A program made the position numbers and the translations under genes. DNA of 64,000 bases. It comes from an uncultured Gammaproteobacteria bacterium (GTDB lineage Bacteria; Patescibacteriota; Patescibacteriia; 2-01-FULL-39-33). Of this stretch, positions 9,453 to 30,759 are shown piece after piece. Every line of letters begins with the position of its first letter. Position 1 is the stretch's first letter. The notes under the pieces are model-generated. The model made no database searches and was not told the DNA's origin. It was given only the letters and a program-made list of their open reading frames with translations. The stretch covers positions 15,419 through 79,418 of the forward strand of contig CAZHYS010000003.1 of the NCBI GenBank assembly GCA_964536975.1, written 5' to 3'.

Positions 9453-9499
9453 CAAGAGTATCTTAGTAAAAAAATTGCCAATTGTCAAAGATTTTGCAG

Positions 9500-9572
9500 T
9501 AGGCCAGGGTGGATTTGAACCACCGACATCTACGTTATAAGCGTAGCGCTCTAACCCCTGAGCTACTGGCCC
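9500..9572 (-). tRNA. tRNA-Ile-like (anticodon TAT)
   Basis: The reverse complement reads GGGCCAG-TA-GCTCAGGGGTTAGAGC-G-CTACG-cTTATaa-CGTAG...GGTTCAAATCC. The 5-bp anticodon stem CTACG/CGTAG is perfect, so the anticodon reads UAU. Confidence 0.65.
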
Positions 9573-25920: not shown

Positions 25921-26080
25921 TATTCTCCTCTTTGCTGTTTTAAAATAATAAAAACAATTAATTAACGCGAATCGATCAAGGCGATTATTTATTTGAAAGC
26001 AAGCGGATTGTTTGGACAAGGACCAAAGATTCCGATTGTCTTCAAATAAATGCCCGATCGATTCCAGAAAGGAATTTTTT

Positions 26081-28351
26081 ATGTCTAATGTGCAGAAGTT
26101 TGAAATGGATTGGGCTGGCCGCAAGTTGTCCGTAGAATTCGGACGCTTGGCCGACCAGGCTAACGCCGCTTGTCTTGTTTCTTATGGCGAGACAGTCGTT
26201 TTGGCGACAGCCGTGATGGGCAAAGAGCCGAGAGAGGGCGTTGACTTTCTCCCCTTCCAGGTGGAGATGGCGGAGAAGATGTATGCCGCCGGCAAAATCA
26301 AAGGTTCGCGATTTGTAAAACGCGAGGGCAAGCCGACCGACAACGCCATTTTGGACGCGCGGATGATTGATCGTGGCTTACGTCCATTATTCAATCAGAA
26401 AATTAGAAATGAAATCCAGGTCGTCGTCACCACCTTGTCTTATGATGATGAAAATCCGGCGGATGTTCTGGCGATTACCGCCGCCGCCATTGCCTTGCAC
26501 GCGTCCGACATTCCTTGGAATGGTCCGTTGGCCGGTTTGGCCATTGGCCGGATCGCCGGACAATTTGTCATTAATCCGACTGTTGCTCAGATAGAACAAT
26601 CGGATTTAAAACTGGTCGTTTCCGTGGTTGGTGATCGGATTGTGATGATTGACGCTGATTTTCAACAGGCGACCGAAGAGGATGCCGCCGCCGCGTTTGA
26701 GTTGGCAATCAAAGAAGCTCGTCCGGTGTTGGAATTCATTGAAAAAATTCGCGAGACAGTCGGCAAAGCCAAGCAAGATGAAAACAAGCTGATTGAGGCG
26801 GCGCAAGCGGCCGGCGAAGTTTCCTTGGCGGAAAAGGAAGCGGCTTTTGATGAAGCCAAGAAATTTTTCGCGCCGCAACTGGAAAAGTATCTGTTCAATC
26901 GGCCGCGCGGCACTAAGAGGGAACGCAAAGAAGTGGCCAAAGTATTGCTTGATGAGTTTGTTGAAAAAATAAAACAAGACGGCCGGCATGAAGAAATAAT
27001 CAATTATGTCAAAGATAATTTTGAAGCTTATCTGGAAGAAGAAGTCAGCCGGGCGATTTTGGAACGCGATTTGCGCGTGGACGGCCGCCGTTTGGATCAG
27101 ATCCGGCCGCTCTCTTGCCAAGTCGGCATCTTGCCGCGCACCCATGGCACCGGGTTGTTCAGCCGCGGTGAGACGCAAGTATTGTCAGTCGTGACCTTGG
27201 GCGCTCCCGGCGACGCGCAGATCCTTGATGAAATGACCGAAGACGATACCAAAAAGCATTATCTTCATTTTTACAATTGTCCGCCTTATTCTTTCGGCGA
27301 GGCGGGTCGGTTTGGCAGCCCTGGTCGGCGGGAAATCGGCCACGGCGCGCTCGCGGAAAAAGCGCTTTTGCCAGTGTTGCCGTCAAAAGAAGAATTCCCT
27401 TATACTATCATGGTCGTGTCTGAAGTGATGGGCTCCAACGGCTCTTCTTCCATGGCTTCTACCTGCGGCTCCACTTTATCACTGATGGATGCGGGCGTGC
27501 CAATCAAGAGTCCGGTGGCCGGTATTGCTATGGGTCTAGTTTCTCGCGGCGACAAATACAAGATTTTGACTGATTTGCAGGATTTGGAAGACGGTGAAGG
27601 CGGCATGGATTTCAAGGTGGCCGGCACCAAGGATGGCATTACCGCCATTCAGATGGACACCAAGACCAGTGGCTTAAACTTGGATATTTGCCGCCAGACT
27701 TTGGCGCAAGCTAAGAAAGCGCGCTTGGAGATATTGGATGAAATAATCAAGACGATTTCCTCACCGCGGCCAGATTTATCGCAGTATGCCCCGCGCATTG
27801 AAACTATGCGAATCAATCCTGACAAAATCAGGGATGTCATTGGCAGCGGCGGCAAGATTATCAATGAGATTATTGCTGTCTGCGATGTCCAGATTGATAT
27901 TGAAGACGACGGTTTGGTCACTATTACCAGCAACAATCCTGAAGGCATGAAGAAGGCGATTAAATGGGTTGAAGATTTGACCAAAGAAATACAAGTCGGC
28001 GAAGTTTACACCGGCAAAGTGGTACGATTGATGGATTTTGGCGCTTTTGTGGAAATTTTGCCCGGCCGGGACGGTATGGTTCATATTTCCGAGTTTGCCA
28101 ATCATCGCGTGGACAAGATTTCCGACGTTGCCAATATCGGCGACACTCTGACTGTTAAAGTGATTGAAATAGACGGCCAGGGACGAGTAAATTTGTCCGT
28201 CAAGCAAGCCGACCCGAATTATGATCCGGCCAGCGATCCCAAAAATGGCGCCGGCCATAGTAATGGCGGCTATCGCGGCAATAATGATCGCCGCAACGGC
28301 GGCCGCGGCTTTTCCGATCGGCCGCGGAAAAAATTCGGCTTCCGCCGGTAG
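26081..28351 (+). CDS. pnp: polynucleotide phosphorylase (PNPase) with RGG-rich C-terminal tail
   Basis: It has two RNase PH domains plus KH and S1 domains. The start MSNVQKF is preferred over the upstream in-frame ATG at 26012. Confidence 0.85.
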   Translation: MSNVQKFEMDWAGRKLSVEFGRLADQANAACLVSYGETVVLATAVMGKEPREGVDFLPFQVEMAEKMYAAGKIKGSRFVKREGKPTDNAILDARMIDRGLRPLFNQKIRNEIQVVVTTLSYDDENPADVLAITAAAIALHASDIPWNGPLAGLAIGRIAGQFVINPTVAQIEQSDLKLVVSVVGDRIVMIDADFQQATEEDAAAAFELAIKEARPVLEFIEKIRETVGKAKQDENKLIEAAQAAGEVSLAEKEAAFDEAKKFFAPQLEKYLFNRPRGTKRERKEVAKVLLDEFVEKIKQDGRHEEIINYVKDNFEAYLEEEVSRAILERDLRVDGRRLDQIRPLSCQVGILPRTHGTGLFSRGETQVLSVVTLGAPGDAQILDEMTEDDTKKHYLHFYNCPPYSFGEAGRFGSPGRREIGHGALAEKALLPVLPSKEEFPYTIMVVSEVMGSNGSSSMASTCGSTLSLMDAGVPIKSPVAGIAMGLVSRGDKYKILTDLQDLEDGEGGMDFKVAGTKDGITAIQMDTKTSGLNLDICRQTLAQAKKARLEILDEIIKTISSPRPDLSQYAPRIETMRINPDKIRDVIGSGGKIINEIIAVCDVQIDIEDDGLVTITSNNPEGMKKAIKWVEDLTKEIQVGEVYTGKVVRLMDFGAFVEILPGRDGMVHISEFANHRVDKISDVANIGDTLTVKVIEIDGQGRVNLSVKQADPNYDPASDPKNGAGHSNGGYRGNNDRRNGGRGFSDRPRKKFGFRR

Positions 28352-28388: not shown

Positions 28389-29732
28389 ATGATATCTTTT
28401 AATCTCAAAAACAATTCCCTCCGTGGCAAAACCGCCCTTTTGCTTTTGGCGGGGATTGTTTTTTTGTCATTTTTTTCTTTTTCCGTTTACAATCAATATT
28501 TTGCCGATACCATTAGCCGCTATGTTCCGGCCGAAGCGGCGTTTTATGTCCGCTTTAGCCTGCCGAAGATAAAGAGCCGGGCAGAACTGTCCGATTTGGC
28601 ATCGCGGACAGTCACTGAAGTCTTATCGCCGCAATTGACGGAAGATTATTTTGATATCTCGCCGGTCAAGAGAGAGTTAGCAATAGTCGGCGCGGTCGCA
28701 AATGGCGAAATTCATCCGGCGGTTATCATTCGGACTGATCGGCCGGGCAAGACAGAGGAGTTTTTCAAAGAGCGCGGGATTTCTTATAAATTTTTGGCTG
28801 GAAATTATCTGGTCGCCGCCAATCGGCCGGAAACATTGGATTTTTTTTCATCTGACCGGACAGATATCTCAGGATTAATCAAGAGCAAGTTTTCCCGTCG
28901 ATCGTCCGTCAATGTTTTTATTTCTTCTTCTGCCGGAAGCGAACTAATTAAGGACAGTTTTTCTTGGAACATATTTTTGGCTGGTTTGGATTTGTCCAGC
29001 GATATTTTTGCTAATGCTCGGGTAAAAGGCGGCCGGCTGGAAGCGACAATTATTGGCAAAGAAAGCGGTCGCGCTGACATTCCCGACAAAATTGGCGATT
29101 TTGATTTTGTTTTGTCCACGGGGGATTTTTCCGCTTTGGCCGACAAATTCTCCGCCCAATTATCATCTGTTTCTTCTGCCGCCGAAAACAATTGGGCGTG
29201 GTGGCGGGAGCGTTATTTCGGCGAAGCTGGCAAAGATGTTTTTGGCCGGCAGCTGGTTTTTGCCGCCGCTGGTACTGGCCGCGGTTCCGGTTGGCCGGTC
29301 AGTGATTTTGATTTTTGTCTTAACGTCTATTTTCCCGACGAGGCGGCGCTGGCAGCCAATTTGCCTATTTGGGAAGAGACGATCAAAAAAATCATCGCTG
29401 AGCGGTTTTTTTCCCGGCAGTCGGTTTGGCTGGATGACGGCACCAGAGTAGTGGAGTATAGGCCGCTTTATTCCCGGCTGGATTATGGCCAGGATGGAGA
29501 TCTCAAAATCATTTCCGCTACCTCTACCAGTGAAGAAATTAGTATTTTTTATGCTTCCGCCGGTCCGGTTTTACGCATTTCCAACAACAAATCTCTGTCC
29601 TGCGATAATTTAGGAGGCGATGGCGATTATATAAAATGGAACACGTCTTTGGCGCCGTTTTATCAGCCGTTTGATTTTCTCAATGCTTTTAAGCAGATAG
29701 AGGCATCAGGGGACAAAGTGATTTTTAGATAA
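28389..29732 (+). CDS. hypothetical N-terminally membrane-anchored protein (447 aa)
   Basis: The ORF is long and has an N-terminal TM helix. I recognise no domain. Confidence 0.5.
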   Translation: MISFNLKNNSLRGKTALLLLAGIVFLSFFSFSVYNQYFADTISRYVPAEAAFYVRFSLPKIKSRAELSDLASRTVTEVLSPQLTEDYFDISPVKRELAIVGAVANGEIHPAVIIRTDRPGKTEEFFKERGISYKFLAGNYLVAANRPETLDFFSSDRTDISGLIKSKFSRRSSVNVFISSSAGSELIKDSFSWNIFLAGLDLSSDIFANARVKGGRLEATIIGKESGRADIPDKIGDFDFVLSTGDFSALADKFSAQLSSVSSAAENNWAWWRERYFGEAGKDVFGRQLVFAAAGTGRGSGWPVSDFDFCLNVYFPDEAALAANLPIWEETIKKIIAERFFSRQSVWLDDGTRVVEYRPLYSRLDYGQDGDLKIISATSTSEEISIFYASAGPVLRISNNKSLSCDNLGGDGDYIKWNTSLAPFYQPFDFLNAFKQIEASGDKVIFR

Positions 29733-29873
29733 TTCTGCTAAATTTAGCGAAAAAATATTTTTTAATCAACATTGTGAATAATATGTTGATAACTTGACAA
29801 GAACAGTTTTTTATTTTGGTGGATAAGTTTGGAATAACTTTATTTTTTGTTTAAAATTAGCCGTTATTTCATA

Positions 29874-29902
29874 TTGACCAGGTATTTGGAAAATGCTATA
29901 AT
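29874..29902 (+). promoter_or_regulatory. strong sigma70-like promoter (ttgacc-17-tataat with TG extended -10)
   Basis: ttgacc is at 29874-29879, then the 17-nt spacer aggtatttggaaaatgc, then tataat at 29897-29902. It points toward the GC-rich structured region and the dksA-like gene. Confidence 0.55.
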
Positions 29903-29999
29903 TAACATAGAAACGATAAAAACGCACCTTTAATCATCTGAAAAGTTGTCCTAAATGACCGTTTAAGACAGTTTTTCGCTTTTTACTATTCGCTTTATT

Positions 30000-30230
30000 C
30001 CCGGCGGGCGTGACTGCTTGCCGCCATTCCGAGGTTTGTCTCGGCCCAAAAAGAGAGCCTACAGCCGGCGCACAGTAGAAGGCAATAGTACCTTAGAATC
30101 TCTCCCGGTCAGAGAGATGCTTTCACTGGCGCGAGGTTGCGCGGATTTTTGCTTGCCGTTTTGGCGTTCAAAACGGCAGACAAACCGGTCTCGAGGCCTG
30201 TAGGCTCAAGAAGCCCACAATATTAATATA
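30000..30230 (+). ncRNA. candidate structured ncRNA or long structured leader (GC-rich, multiple hairpins)
   Basis: It contains hairpins ccgag-gtttgt-ctcgg, tctctc-ccggtca-gagaga, cgcg-aggttg-cgcg and ccgtttt-ggcgttc-aaaacgg. There are long-range complements gagcctacag/ctgtaggctc and ggtttgtct/agacaaacc. GC is far above the AT-rich flanks. It lies downstream of the promoter at 29874-29902. I could not match it to a known RNA class. Confidence 0.35.
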
Positions 30231-30378
30231 CAAATATAAATATGGGGTGTACGCTTGAGCCTCTTTTGTTTTCTCAAAAAATTTGTTATATTTAACTAAA
30301 CATAAATTTGCTTCATATAAGGAGGGCTCATTGCTGCGGCTTATAAAGGCCGCAGTCAAATTAATTTCTAACCATTTT

Positions 30379-30759
30379 ATGGACGAGAAAATTCTCCAAG
30401 AGCTGAAAAATCAGCTTGAAGAAAAAAAAGAAAGAATAATCGCCAACTTAGAAAGCATCGGCAATCGAGTGAAGGGCGATGACAACGATGAGATAAATTA
30501 CAACGCCGAGTTTCCCGATTACGGCGATTCCAGCGAGGACAGCGCGGTGGAAGTGGCTGATTATACCAAAAATTTGTCTTTTGAACGGGGGCTAGAAGGC
30601 GAATTGCGCGACGTGGAAGCGGCGCTCAAAAAAATAGCAGAAGGGGGATATGGTATTTGCAAGCACTGCGGCAAGCAGATAGAGCTGGAGCGATTGAAGA
30701 TCCGCCCCGAATCATCTTCTTGCGTCGCCTGCAAACAAGCGCTCAAGAATGGGGAATGA
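30379..30759 (+). CDS. DksA/TraR-family C4-type zinc-finger protein
   Basis: It has CKHCGKQIELERLKIRPESSSCVACK (CxxC-17-CxxC) and an N-terminal coiled coil. The ORF track starts earlier at 30283. Confidence 0.65.
   Translation: MDEKILQELKNQLEEKKERIIANLESIGNRVKGDDNDEINYNAEFPDYGDSSEDSAVEVADYTKNLSFERGLEGELRDVEAALKKIAEGGYGICKHCGKQIELERLKIRPESSSCVACKQALKNGE

What the first reader, a model, noticed from the sequence alone, without database searches (positions are those of the whole stretch)
29874..30290. Promoter-driven, hairpin-dense GC-rich RNA element upstream of a DksA/TraR-like gene
A near-consensus promoter (ttgacc-17-TG-tataat) fires into an about 230-nt segment that is an island of high GC in AT-rich DNA. 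It is packed with stable hairpins and long-range complementary pairs (gagcctacag/ctgtaggctc and ggtttgtct/agacaaacc), including a possible pseudoknot arrangement. A 9-bp stem plus U-rich tract lies at about 30200-30290 before the dksA-like ORF. The only ORFs over it lack RBSs. It is a candidate novel sRNA or cis-regulatory leader. I could not match it to tmRNA, RNase P, SRP or 6S motifs.
Basis: seen in the sequence. Interest (0 to 1): 0.5.

Follow-up and report, generated by a model that had tools for sequence, protein, structure and literature searches.

The report
New structured RNA gene in CPR bacteria
The flagged stretch is a stand-alone gene for a roughly 360-base, intricately folded non-coding RNA that is conserved in over a hundred related candidate-phyla-radiation (Patescibacteria) sequences, matches no described RNA family, and has no known function.

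Summary
These are a near-consensus promoter (29874-29902), a GC-rich hairpin-dense segment, the two long inverted repeats, and a 9-bp stem followed by a U-run.

The element is real and conserved. Iterated profile searches and an RNA-only metagenome scan give 110 distinct homologues in Patescibacteria (Buchananbacteria, Uhrbacteria, "Parcubacteria group").

Compensatory base changes support five helices: a 5' hairpin, a long-range helix, two 3' hairpins and the terminator. In these, 91.5% of cells pair against 44-50% in slid controls. A covarying 6-7 bp kissing loop bridges the long-range helix.

There is a pseudoknot, but it is a different one.

The RNA has its own promoter (extended -10 in 86/102 homologues) and its own terminator. 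The downstream DksA/TraR-like gene (dksA below) has a separate promoter. In about 12 of some 80 relatives found through the RNA alone, dksA is displaced or absent. No conserved antiterminator exists. It is therefore a stand-alone RNA gene, not a leader.

Rfam 15 has no match. The paired-termini architecture of RNase P, 6S, SRP and tmRNA is absent.

DnaA boxes are about 30-fold enriched just upstream of its promoter. Function is unknown; I judge a trans-acting, protein-binding RNA most likely.

The parts
28389..29732 (+). Upstream neighbour: a 447-aa protein with an N-terminal membrane anchor and no Pfam domain. A homologue lies on the same strand about 200 nt upstream of the RNA in 86 of 97 loci.
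29773..29826 (-). Three DnaA-box-like 9-mers, each one mismatch from TTATCCACA, at 29773-81, 29784-92 and 29818-26. This is the window's copy of a DnaA-box cluster conserved upstream of the RNA promoter.
29874..29902 (+). RNA promoter: -35 TTGACC, 17-nt spacer holding TG (29894-95), -10 TATAAT (29897-29902).
   Evidence: TGnTAnnnT is present at the RNA start in 86/102 homologues, against 14.5% background.
29909..30275 (+). Inferred transcript of about 365 nt. The 5' end is inferred from the -10 element and the 3' end from the terminator U-run. The first 30 nt or so are an unconserved AT-rich leader.
   Evidence: Inference. Homology spans 29928-30281.
29940..29977 (+). P1: 5' hairpin, 29940-55 paired with 29962-77 (15 of 16 pairs), loop TGACCG.
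   Evidence: (9 of 13 pairs with compensatory change)
29978..29987 (+). P2, 5' strand (GCUUUUUACU). It directly abuts P1.
30074..30083 (+). P2, 3' strand (AGUAGAAGGC). P2 is a 10-bp long-range helix that closes a multi-helix junction.
   Evidence: 95% of cells paired, 5 pairs with compensatory change. A P2 of score 7 or more was located in 101/110 members.
30003..30025 (+). P3 hairpin inside P2: GGCGG/CCGCC with 13-nt loop GCGUGACUGCUUG. Loop bases 30011-16 (UGACUG) form the kissing contact.
30041..30061 (+). P4b with the conserved 11-nt loop CCAAAAAGAGA (30046-56; family consensus CCAnAAAGAGn). The stem is weak in the window (4 of 5 pairs) and competes with a window-specific hairpin, CCGAG 30029-33 / CTCGG 30040-44.
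30098..30118 (+). P5 hairpin just outside P2: 7 bp, loop CCGGUCA. Loop bases 30106-11 (CGGUCA) pair with 30011-16, giving a kissing-loop pseudoknot.
30148..30184 (+). P7 hairpin: TTTGCTTGCCGTTTTG / CAAAACGGCAGACAAA.
   Evidence: (10 of 11 pairs with compensatory change)
30187..30198 (+). P8 small hairpin: GGTC/GGCC with loop TCGA.
   Evidence: (4 of 4 pairs with compensatory change)
30202..30275 (+). P9: long intrinsic-terminator hairpin (30202-10 / 30254-62) with an AU-rich top, followed by a U-run (30263-75). The stem is unusually conserved in sequence (GGCGCAAG...CUUGCGCC).
   Evidence: (100% of cells paired, 8 of 9 pairs with compensatory change)
30284..30292 (+). Separate extended -10 promoter (TGTTATATT) for the dksA-like gene, immediately after the RNA terminator.
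30379..30759 (+). DksA/TraR C4 zinc-finger gene (126 aa from the ATG). It is not part of the RNA. Its 5' UTR holds an SD-like AAGGAGGG (30319-26) and a hairpin (30334-58).

Best explanation
This is a stand-alone gene for a roughly 360-nt structured non-coding RNA of a family not described so far. It is characteristic of Buchananbacteria- and Uhrbacteria-type Patescibacteria.

Shown or supported here:
- A sigma-70 promoter with an extended -10 starts transcription near 29909. Conserved DnaA boxes lie 130-170 nt upstream of the -10.
- The RNA folds into a 5' hairpin (P1) abutting a long-range helix (P2).
- P2 closes a junction that holds P3 and a hairpin presenting an almost invariant 11-nt loop, CCAnAAAGAGn.
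- The loop of P3 forms a 6-7 bp kissing contact with the loop of P5, which lies just outside P2. This locks the 5' domain into a pseudoknot.
- Two to three further hairpins follow, then a long intrinsic-terminator hairpin that ends the transcript near 30272.
- The dksA-like gene that follows is transcribed from its own promoter.

Inferred, not shown:
- The RNA acts in trans, most likely as a protein-binding or scaffold RNA, rather than by controlling the gene next to it.
- Its expression is tied to DnaA.
For: Homology:
- nhmmer from the window alone finds the element upstream of dksA in relatives.
- Iteration finds it in 48 of 81 sequences, always on the + strand.
- In total there are 110 distinct sequences.

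Structure:
- 91.5% of cells pair, against 44-50% with slid partners. 38 of 50 pairs carry compensatory changes, and 0 of 500 shuffles reach any measure.
- A second clade gives the same P1 and P2.
- The kissing loop has more than 15 distinct complementary sequence pairs. On a structure-blind alignment of 69 members, 85% of cells pair against 8-39% slid, with TA/CG, GC/AT and CG/AT double changes.

Strand:
- G-U pairs dominate several columns, for example UG in 13 of 17 and 10 of 17 sequences in P2.
- Promoter and terminator orientation agree with the + strand.

Independence from dksA:
- The RNA's own promoter is conserved in 86/102 homologues.
- A -35/-10 or extended -10 promoter lies between the terminator and dksA in the loci inspected.
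- In the RNA-only sample, an extra ORF separates the RNA from dksA, or other genes follow it: a CCA-adding-enzyme-like gene, RNase HII, or lspA.
- There is no conserved antiterminator.

Not a known family or a gene:
- No Rfam hit in the window at E up to 10, none at gathering score in 40 related loci, and none in 5 of those loci rescanned at E up to 0.5.
- No tmRNA and no conserved ORF.

DnaA boxes:
- 66 of 78 upstream regions hold a perfect box, 3.9 per kb against 0.13 per kb, with one orientation and a preferred distance.
Against: - No expression data. The transcript ends are inferred from sequence only.
- Trans action and protein binding are inferred by elimination. No partner is identified.
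- Gene order is very stable (pnp, 447-aa protein, RNA, dksA, lspA). A functional link to dksA, including partial read-through control, is therefore not excluded.
- In this genome a perfect 10-bp complement to the terminator's 5' arm exists (30055-64). It is unlikely by chance (my rough estimate, about 1e-3) and could act as a local antiterminator.
- Alignments of the variable central part are imperfect.
- Relatedness inflates the shuffle controls, although the slid controls do not suffer from this.
Confidence: 0.62

Rival explanations
1. It is a cis-acting leader (riboswitch or attenuator). The 5' domain senses a ligand or protein and decides whether transcription stops at the 30202-30275 terminator or reads through into dksA-lspA.
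For: - The layout is promoter, structured RNA, terminator, gene.
- dksA follows within 50-250 nt in about 85% of members retrieved through the RNA alone.
- A junction plus kissing-loop domain resembles large aptamers. This comparison is from my own knowledge, not a test.
- The terminator stem is conserved in sequence.
- In the window, a 10-bp complement to the terminator's 5' arm exists.
Against: - A separate dksA promoter follows the terminator in the loci inspected.
- Three covarying hairpins lie between the putative aptamer and the terminator.
- Complementarity to the terminator arm is no better than for shuffled arms, 6.43 against 6.27, and its position is inconsistent.
- Some members are followed by unrelated genes or have an extra ORF inserted.
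- There is no match to any riboswitch or leader model.
Confidence: 0.15
2. It is a highly divergent copy of a known universal or mobile RNA (RNase P RNA, 6S RNA, SRP RNA, tmRNA, or a group I intron) that the Rfam models fail to recognise in this phylum.
For: - Its size (about 360 nt), strong promoter, broad conservation and pseudoknot fit a housekeeping RNA.
- A 2026 paper reports that Rfam's group I intron model misses some introns in Patescibacteria tRNA genes (PMC13011429).
Against: - Both termini form local hairpins supported by covariation: P1, and P9 with 100% of cells paired. There is no 5'/3' terminal helix of the kind that RNase P, 6S, SRP and tmRNA all have.
- No Rfam hit of any of these families even at E up to 10.
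- No tmRNA found by ARAGORN.
- No tRNA halves flank the element. By reading the alignments against motifs I recalled from memory, I saw no D-arm, no T-arm, no RNase P P4 motif and no SRP domain IV motif.
Confidence: 0.05
3. It is a chance-structured intergenic spacer, or a small-protein gene.
For: - The MFE z-score is equal on both strands.
- A 61-codon ORF overlaps the element.
Against: - 110 distinct homologues with compensatory changes.
- The ORF is not conserved: no tblastn hit at the homologous place.
- The alignments show many insertions and deletions.
Confidence: 0.02

Closest known systems
raiA motif RNA (Firmicutes and Actinobacteria; an orphan structured ncRNA)
   Same: It is a stand-alone, complex-folded ncRNA with pseudoknots, kept next to a stress or regulatory gene but transcribed on its own, with unknown biochemical function. 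What I say about raiA is from my own knowledge.
   Different: There is no sequence or structure match, since the Rfam scans found nothing. The phylum differs, and this RNA is longer: about 360 nt here, against roughly 200 nt for raiA as I recall it.
6S RNA and Ms1 (RNA-polymerase-binding RNAs)
   Same: It is probably an abundant stand-alone RNA driven by a strong sigma-70 promoter. It sits beside a gene for an RNA-polymerase-binding factor (DksA family), so an RNA polymerase link is conceivable.
   Different: As I recall it, 6S is a rod whose 5' and 3' ends pair around a central bubble. Here both ends are local hairpins and the body is a junction plus kissing loop. No 6S model matches.
Large riboswitch aptamers with a junction plus kissing loop (cobalamin, lysine)
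   Same: The 5' domain is a helix-closed junction in which one internal hairpin loop kisses a hairpin placed just 3' of the closing helix. From memory, this is topologically like L5-L13 of cobalamin riboswitches. A terminator follows further downstream.
   Different: There is no B12 box and no match to any riboswitch model. Three extra conserved hairpins precede the terminator. There is no conserved antiterminator, and the downstream gene has its own promoter.
Group I introns in Patescibacteria tRNA and rRNA genes
   Same: The phylum, the size range, and a long-range helix crossed by a second pairing are shared.
   Different: There are no flanking tRNA or rRNA exons. The element has its own promoter and terminator. 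There is no RF00028 hit at E up to 10.

Membership tests
6S RNA | The 5' and 3' ends pair into a closing stem around a large central bubble (rod shape). | tested here: not met
   The termini form separate local hairpins, P1 and P9, both supported by covariation.
6S RNA | Match to an Rfam 6S model. | tested here: not met
   No hit at E up to 10. None at gathering score in 40 related loci.
6S RNA | Binds the RNA polymerase holoenzyme and templates pRNA synthesis. | not testable with these tools
   Biochemical.
RNase P RNA (bacterial) | A P1 terminal helix, a P4 pseudoknot with conserved motifs, and a match to an Rfam model. | tested here: not met
   There is no terminal helix and no Rfam hit. 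The P4 motif as I recalled it from memory was not seen on reading the consensus.
tmRNA | A tRNA-like acceptor and T-arm formed by the termini, plus a tag reading frame. | tested here: not met
   ARAGORN finds only 7 tRNAs in the window and none at this site. No Rfam hit.
SRP RNA | A domain IV helix with the conserved loop motifs, paired termini, and a match to an Rfam model. | tested here: not met
   No Rfam hit. The termini are not paired.
Group I intron | Interrupts a host gene (tRNA, rRNA or CDS exons on both sides). | tested here: not met
   The flanks are a promoter and a terminator. By reading I saw no tRNA halves.
Group I intron | Match to the group I covariance model. | tested here: not met
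   No RF00028 hit at E up to 10. Caveat: that model is reported to miss some Patescibacteria introns (PMC13011429).
Transcription-attenuating riboswitch or leader | A conserved alternative pairing (antiterminator) that competes with the terminator. | tested here: not met
   The best complement to the terminator's 5' arm scores 6.43, against 6.27 for shuffled arms, over 100 members, and its position is inconsistent. The window's 10-bp pair is not conserved.
Transcription-attenuating riboswitch or leader | The regulated gene depends on the leader's promoter, with no promoter in between. | tested here: not met
   A -35/-10 or extended -10 promoter lies between the terminator and dksA in the loci inspected. 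These are sequence matches only; activity was not measured.
Transcription-attenuating riboswitch or leader | Constant association with one gene or pathway. | tested here: inconclusive
   About 85% of members retrieved through the RNA alone have dksA within 250 nt. The exceptions have other genes downstream or an inserted ORF.
Stand-alone structured ncRNA gene (generic) | Own promoter, own terminator, conserved secondary structure with covariation, and no conserved ORF. | tested here: met
   promoter; terminator and helices; kissing loop; no conserved ORF.
Stand-alone structured ncRNA gene (generic) | A discrete transcript is detected. | not testable with these tools
   No transcriptome data are available here.

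The most novel reading that the evidence does not exclude
This is a new class of large, complex-folded RNA specific to a major branch of the candidate phyla radiation. Its transcription is wired to the replication initiator DnaA, and its gene is kept between PNPase and a DksA-family factor. It would be a growth-state or replication-coupled regulatory ribonucleoprotein (a functional analogue of 6S RNA built on an unrelated fold), or a ribozyme, in organisms with minimal regulatory repertoires.
Probability: 0.25. Interest if true: 0.85.

Novelty: new variant of a known kind. Interest (0 to 1): 0.66.

Why it matters
Large, intricately folded bacterial RNAs of unknown function are rare. In the past such RNAs have turned out to be ribozymes, RNP scaffolds or self-assembling RNA particles.

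This one is abundant in groundwater and sediment metagenomes. It is conserved across several candidate phyla of the poorly understood, mostly uncultured Patescibacteria, and it is missing from Rfam.

The work here provides:
- a covariation-supported fold that includes a pseudoknot;
- an invariant exposed loop to target experimentally;
- an unexpected conserved DnaA-box cluster at the promoter, which makes a link between replication status and RNA-based regulation directly testable.

It would also improve annotation of a 600-nt "empty" intergenic region in hundreds of metagenome-assembled genomes (MAGs).

Tried and rejected
- Rfam. I ran gathering-score scans of the whole window and of 40 related loci, and permissive scans (E up to 10 on the element, E up to 0.5 on 5 of those 40 loci). 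They found only tRNAs and sub-threshold noise: snoRNA-like matches and an S15-leader-like match over the dksA 5' UTR.
- tmRNA and tRNA by ARAGORN. None at the site.
They are not conserved. AGACAAA belongs to the local hairpin P7 instead.
- A possible pairing of the conserved AAAGAG loop with the CCUCUUU at the terminator's 3' side. It was not consistent across L004, L012, L015 and L027 by inspection, so I dropped it.
- A weak complementarity between the 3' side of P4b and the terminator's 5' arm in clade 1 (67-74% paired, no compensatory change in one of its two segments). By my reading it is absent in clade 2, so I dropped it as a conserved antiterminator.
- An origin of replication as the explanation for the DnaA boxes. 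GC skew is positive over the whole 64 kb with no switch, and the boxes keep a fixed orientation and distance to the promoter.
- A coding reading. The ORFs are not conserved.
- Automated extraction of the P3 and P5 loops by local folding. It failed at first because the P2 3' strand was misplaced. I repaired it by locating P2 through complementarity.
- Identity of the 447-aa upstream protein. There is no Pfam domain, and the word-indexed homologue search returned only the protein itself. I did not attempt a structure prediction, because an alignment of admissible sequences could not be assembled.
- Literature. Seven full-text searches found no description of this RNA.

Full report
**What is in the window**

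The finding lies in a 600-nt intergenic region (29733-30330). On its left is a 447-aa hypothetical protein gene. On its right is a DksA/TraR zinc-finger gene (Pfam PF01258; called dksA below), followed by lspA. A PNPase gene (pnp) lies further upstream. Protein homologues place the organism in Patescibacteria, close to Candidatus Buchananbacteria.

**Check of the observation**

- Promoter: TTGACC-17-TATAAT with an upstream TG scores 11 of 12.
- Base composition: 29950-30200 has 50-58% GC, against 21-30% in the flanking spacer. That is simply the GC level of coding DNA here.
- Inverted repeats: both long repeats are perfect and cross each other.
- Terminator: a 9-bp stem (30202-10 / 30254-62) is followed by a U-run.
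- Stability: the fold is more stable than shuffles (z = -3.9), but equally so on the opposite strand, so this alone says little.

Rfam gives nothing, either at gathering score or at E up to 10. ARAGORN finds no tmRNA.

**Homologues**

I fetched 80 genome loci through an alignment of DksA-like proteins.
- nhmmer with the window's element alone found it upstream of dksA in several of them.
- Iteration converged on 48 of 81 sequences. Every hit is on the strand of dksA, 50-250 nt upstream of it.
- To remove the bias of fetching by dksA, I scanned the metagenome collection with a DNA pattern made only of RNA motifs: TTCTYTACT, then AAAAYAAAA, then GGTWGAGR.
- About 80 of the 120 stretches returned are true family members by the profile.
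- Together this gives 110 distinct sequences.
- Record titles name Buchananbacteria, Uhrbacteria and "Parcubacteria group" MAGs.

**Structure**

RNAalifold on 17 relatives of the window, and separately on 16 members of a second clade, gave the same backbone. In window coordinates, verified:
- P1: 29940-55 / 29962-77.
- P2: 29978-87 / 30074-83. It starts directly after P1.
- P7: 30148-63 / 30169-84.
- P8: 30187-90 / 30195-98.
- P9, the terminator: 30202-10 / 30254-62.

Counting these pairs gave the following:
- 91.5% of cells pair, against 44-50% when partners are slid by 1-3 columns.
- 38 of 50 pairs carry changes on both sides.
- None of 500 shuffles reaches any measure.

Many pairs are G-U (for example UG in 13 of 17 and 10 of 17 sequences in P2). 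This fixes the + strand as the transcribed one.

Inside P2 lie two further elements:
- Hairpin P3 (30003-25).
- A hairpin that presents the most conserved unpaired sequence of the family, the 11-nt loop CCAnAAAGAGn (window 30046-56).

Just outside P2 lies hairpin P5 (30098-118).

**The real pseudoknot**

The loops of P3 and P5 are complementary, and they change together across the family. Examples:

| P3 loop | P5 loop |
|---|---|
| CUGACU | AGUCAG |
| GCUGGC | GUCAGC |
| GUUGAC | GUCAAC |
| GCUAAC | GUUAGC |
| GCCGAC | GUCGGC |
| ACCGAC | GUCGGU |
| GCCGAUC | GAUUGGC |
| CCGAU | AUCGG |
| GUUGGU | ACCAAC |
| UCGAAC | GUUCGA |
| UGGGC | GCCCA |
| UGAGCU | AGCUCA |
| GGAGC | GCUCC |

In the window the pair is UGACUG (30011-16) with CGGUCA (30106-11).

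On a MAFFT alignment of 69 non-redundant members, made without regard to structure, 85% of cells pair against 8-39% for slid partners. Double changes are TA/CG (34 and 13), GC/AT (45 and 5) and CG/AT (43 and 3).

One of their arms, AGACAAA, belongs to P7. The 10-bp pair is unique to this genome. The idea of a pseudoknot was right; the pairs were wrong.

**Gene or leader?**

Four observations argue for an independent gene.
1. The RNA's promoter is conserved. An extended -10 sits at the RNA start in 86 of 102 homologues, against 14.5% of random 140-nt windows. A TTGACA-like -35 is visible in most of the regions listed.
2. A second promoter follows the terminator. In the window it is TGTTATATT at 30284-92. 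In other loci it is a clear TTGACA-17-TATAAT.
3. In the sample retrieved through the RNA alone, about 85% have dksA just downstream. In the remainder, an extra ORF is inserted (L095, L130), or the next gene is a CCA-adding-enzyme-like gene (L097, L101, L115), lspA (L145) or RNase HII (L141, L173).
4. There is no conserved antiterminator. The best complement of the terminator's 5' arm anywhere upstream scores 6.43 on average, against 6.27 for shuffled arms, and falls at inconsistent places.

The overlapping ORFs are not conserved.

**Comparison with known RNAs**

RNase P RNA, 6S RNA, SRP RNA and tmRNA all pair their 5' and 3' ends. Here each end is a local, covarying hairpin. None of their models, nor any other Rfam model, matches the window or the 40 related loci.

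A 2026 paper shows that Rfam's group I intron model misses some introns in Patescibacteria tRNA genes (PMC13011429). This element, however, has a promoter and a terminator at its ends and no tRNA halves.

Seven full-text literature searches found no description of it.

The nearest analogues in kind are orphan structured RNAs such as the raiA motif RNA. This comparison is from my own knowledge.

**Context that may bear on function**

- Gene order is very stable: pnp, a 420-480 aa membrane-anchored protein without known domains (86 of 97 loci), the RNA, dksA, lspA.
- The 260 nt upstream of the RNA hold a perfect DnaA box (TTATCCACA) in 66 of 78 distinct loci. That is 3.9 per kb, against 0.13 per kb over all 1.4 Mb fetched.
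- The boxes lie almost always in one orientation and peak 130-170 nt upstream of the -10.
- The window has three one-mismatch boxes at 29773-29826.
- GC skew does not switch anywhere in the window, so this is not a replication origin.

**Mechanism**

Shown:
- Conservation of the element.
- The fold, including the pseudoknot.
- The transcribed strand.
- Its own promoter-like and terminator elements.
- A separate promoter-like element for dksA.

Inferred:
- The transcript ends.
- Action in trans as a protein-binding or scaffold RNA that exposes the CCAnAAAGAG loop.
- Control of its promoter by DnaA.

I put about 0.9 on "stand-alone structured ncRNA of a new family" and about 0.5 on "acts in trans as an RNP", which gives 0.62 for the combined statement. 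A cis-attenuator role for dksA keeps about 0.15. The main reasons are the tight synteny and the window-specific 10-bp complement to the terminator arm.

**Verdict**

It is a new family of roughly 360-nt RNA with a covarying pseudoknot, widespread in a CPR lineage, whose function is unknown.

Noticed in passing
window 29773-29826; e.g. L033:2336-2375; the 260 nt upstream of the RNA in 78 loci: A DnaA-box cluster is conserved upstream of the RNA promoter. A perfect TTATCCACA is present in 66/78 loci, a 30-fold enrichment. The boxes have one orientation and peak 130-170 nt upstream of the -10. In some Uhrbacteria-type loci two boxes form a palindrome that also looks like the terminator of the upstream gene.
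   Followed up: partly
window 28389-29732 and the gene upstream of the RNA in 86/97 loci: A fast-evolving family of 420-480 aa proteins with an N-terminal membrane anchor and no Pfam domain is linked to the RNA as tightly as dksA is. It stays upstream even where dksA is missing (L097, L130, L145, L197).
   Followed up: partly
L034:2540-2900, L042:2480-2810, L053:2560-2910, L069:2540-2890: In Magasanikbacteria-type loci the same slot upstream of dksA holds a different ORF-free, GC-rich stretch with promoters on both sides (shared GGCTGACTnTTGCC...GGCAGnAG..AGTCCG). It has no Rfam match. Whether it is a very divergent relative or another RNA is open. L033, L063, L038 and L070 carry a longer variant that keeps a P2-like pairing.
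   Followed up: partly
window 30319-30358; L001:2954-3042: The dksA 5' UTR has an SD-like AAGGAGGG about 53 nt before the ATG, followed by a strong conserved hairpin (CTGCGGC...GCCGCAG). It gives weak, sub-threshold S15-leader-like Rfam matches in both the window and L001. It may be a separate translational control element.
   Followed up: no
window 9499-9572 (- strand): ARAGORN calls a tRNA-Ile with anticodon TAT. As far as I recall, this is uncommon in bacteria, which usually decode AUA with a lysidine-modified CAT tRNA.
   Followed up: no
window 28200-28351 (C-terminus of PNPase, 26012-28351): The PNPase carries an arginine/glycine-rich C-terminal tail (GGYRGNNDRRNGGRGFSDRPRKKFGFRR). This looks like an extra RNA-binding extension.
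   Followed up: no
window 30055-30064 with 30198-30207: A perfect 10-bp complement to the terminator's 5' arm exists only in this genome, scoring 10 against a family mean of 6.4. It could give this species a local alternative fold that competes with termination.
   Followed up: partly
clade-2 members, e.g. L022:2680-2700: A conserved A-rich hairpin loop (AAAACAAAAACAAAA) inside P2 is among the most conserved words of the family (21-25 of 48 genome members). It is replaced by a short GUUUGU-loop hairpin in the window's clade.
   Followed up: partly
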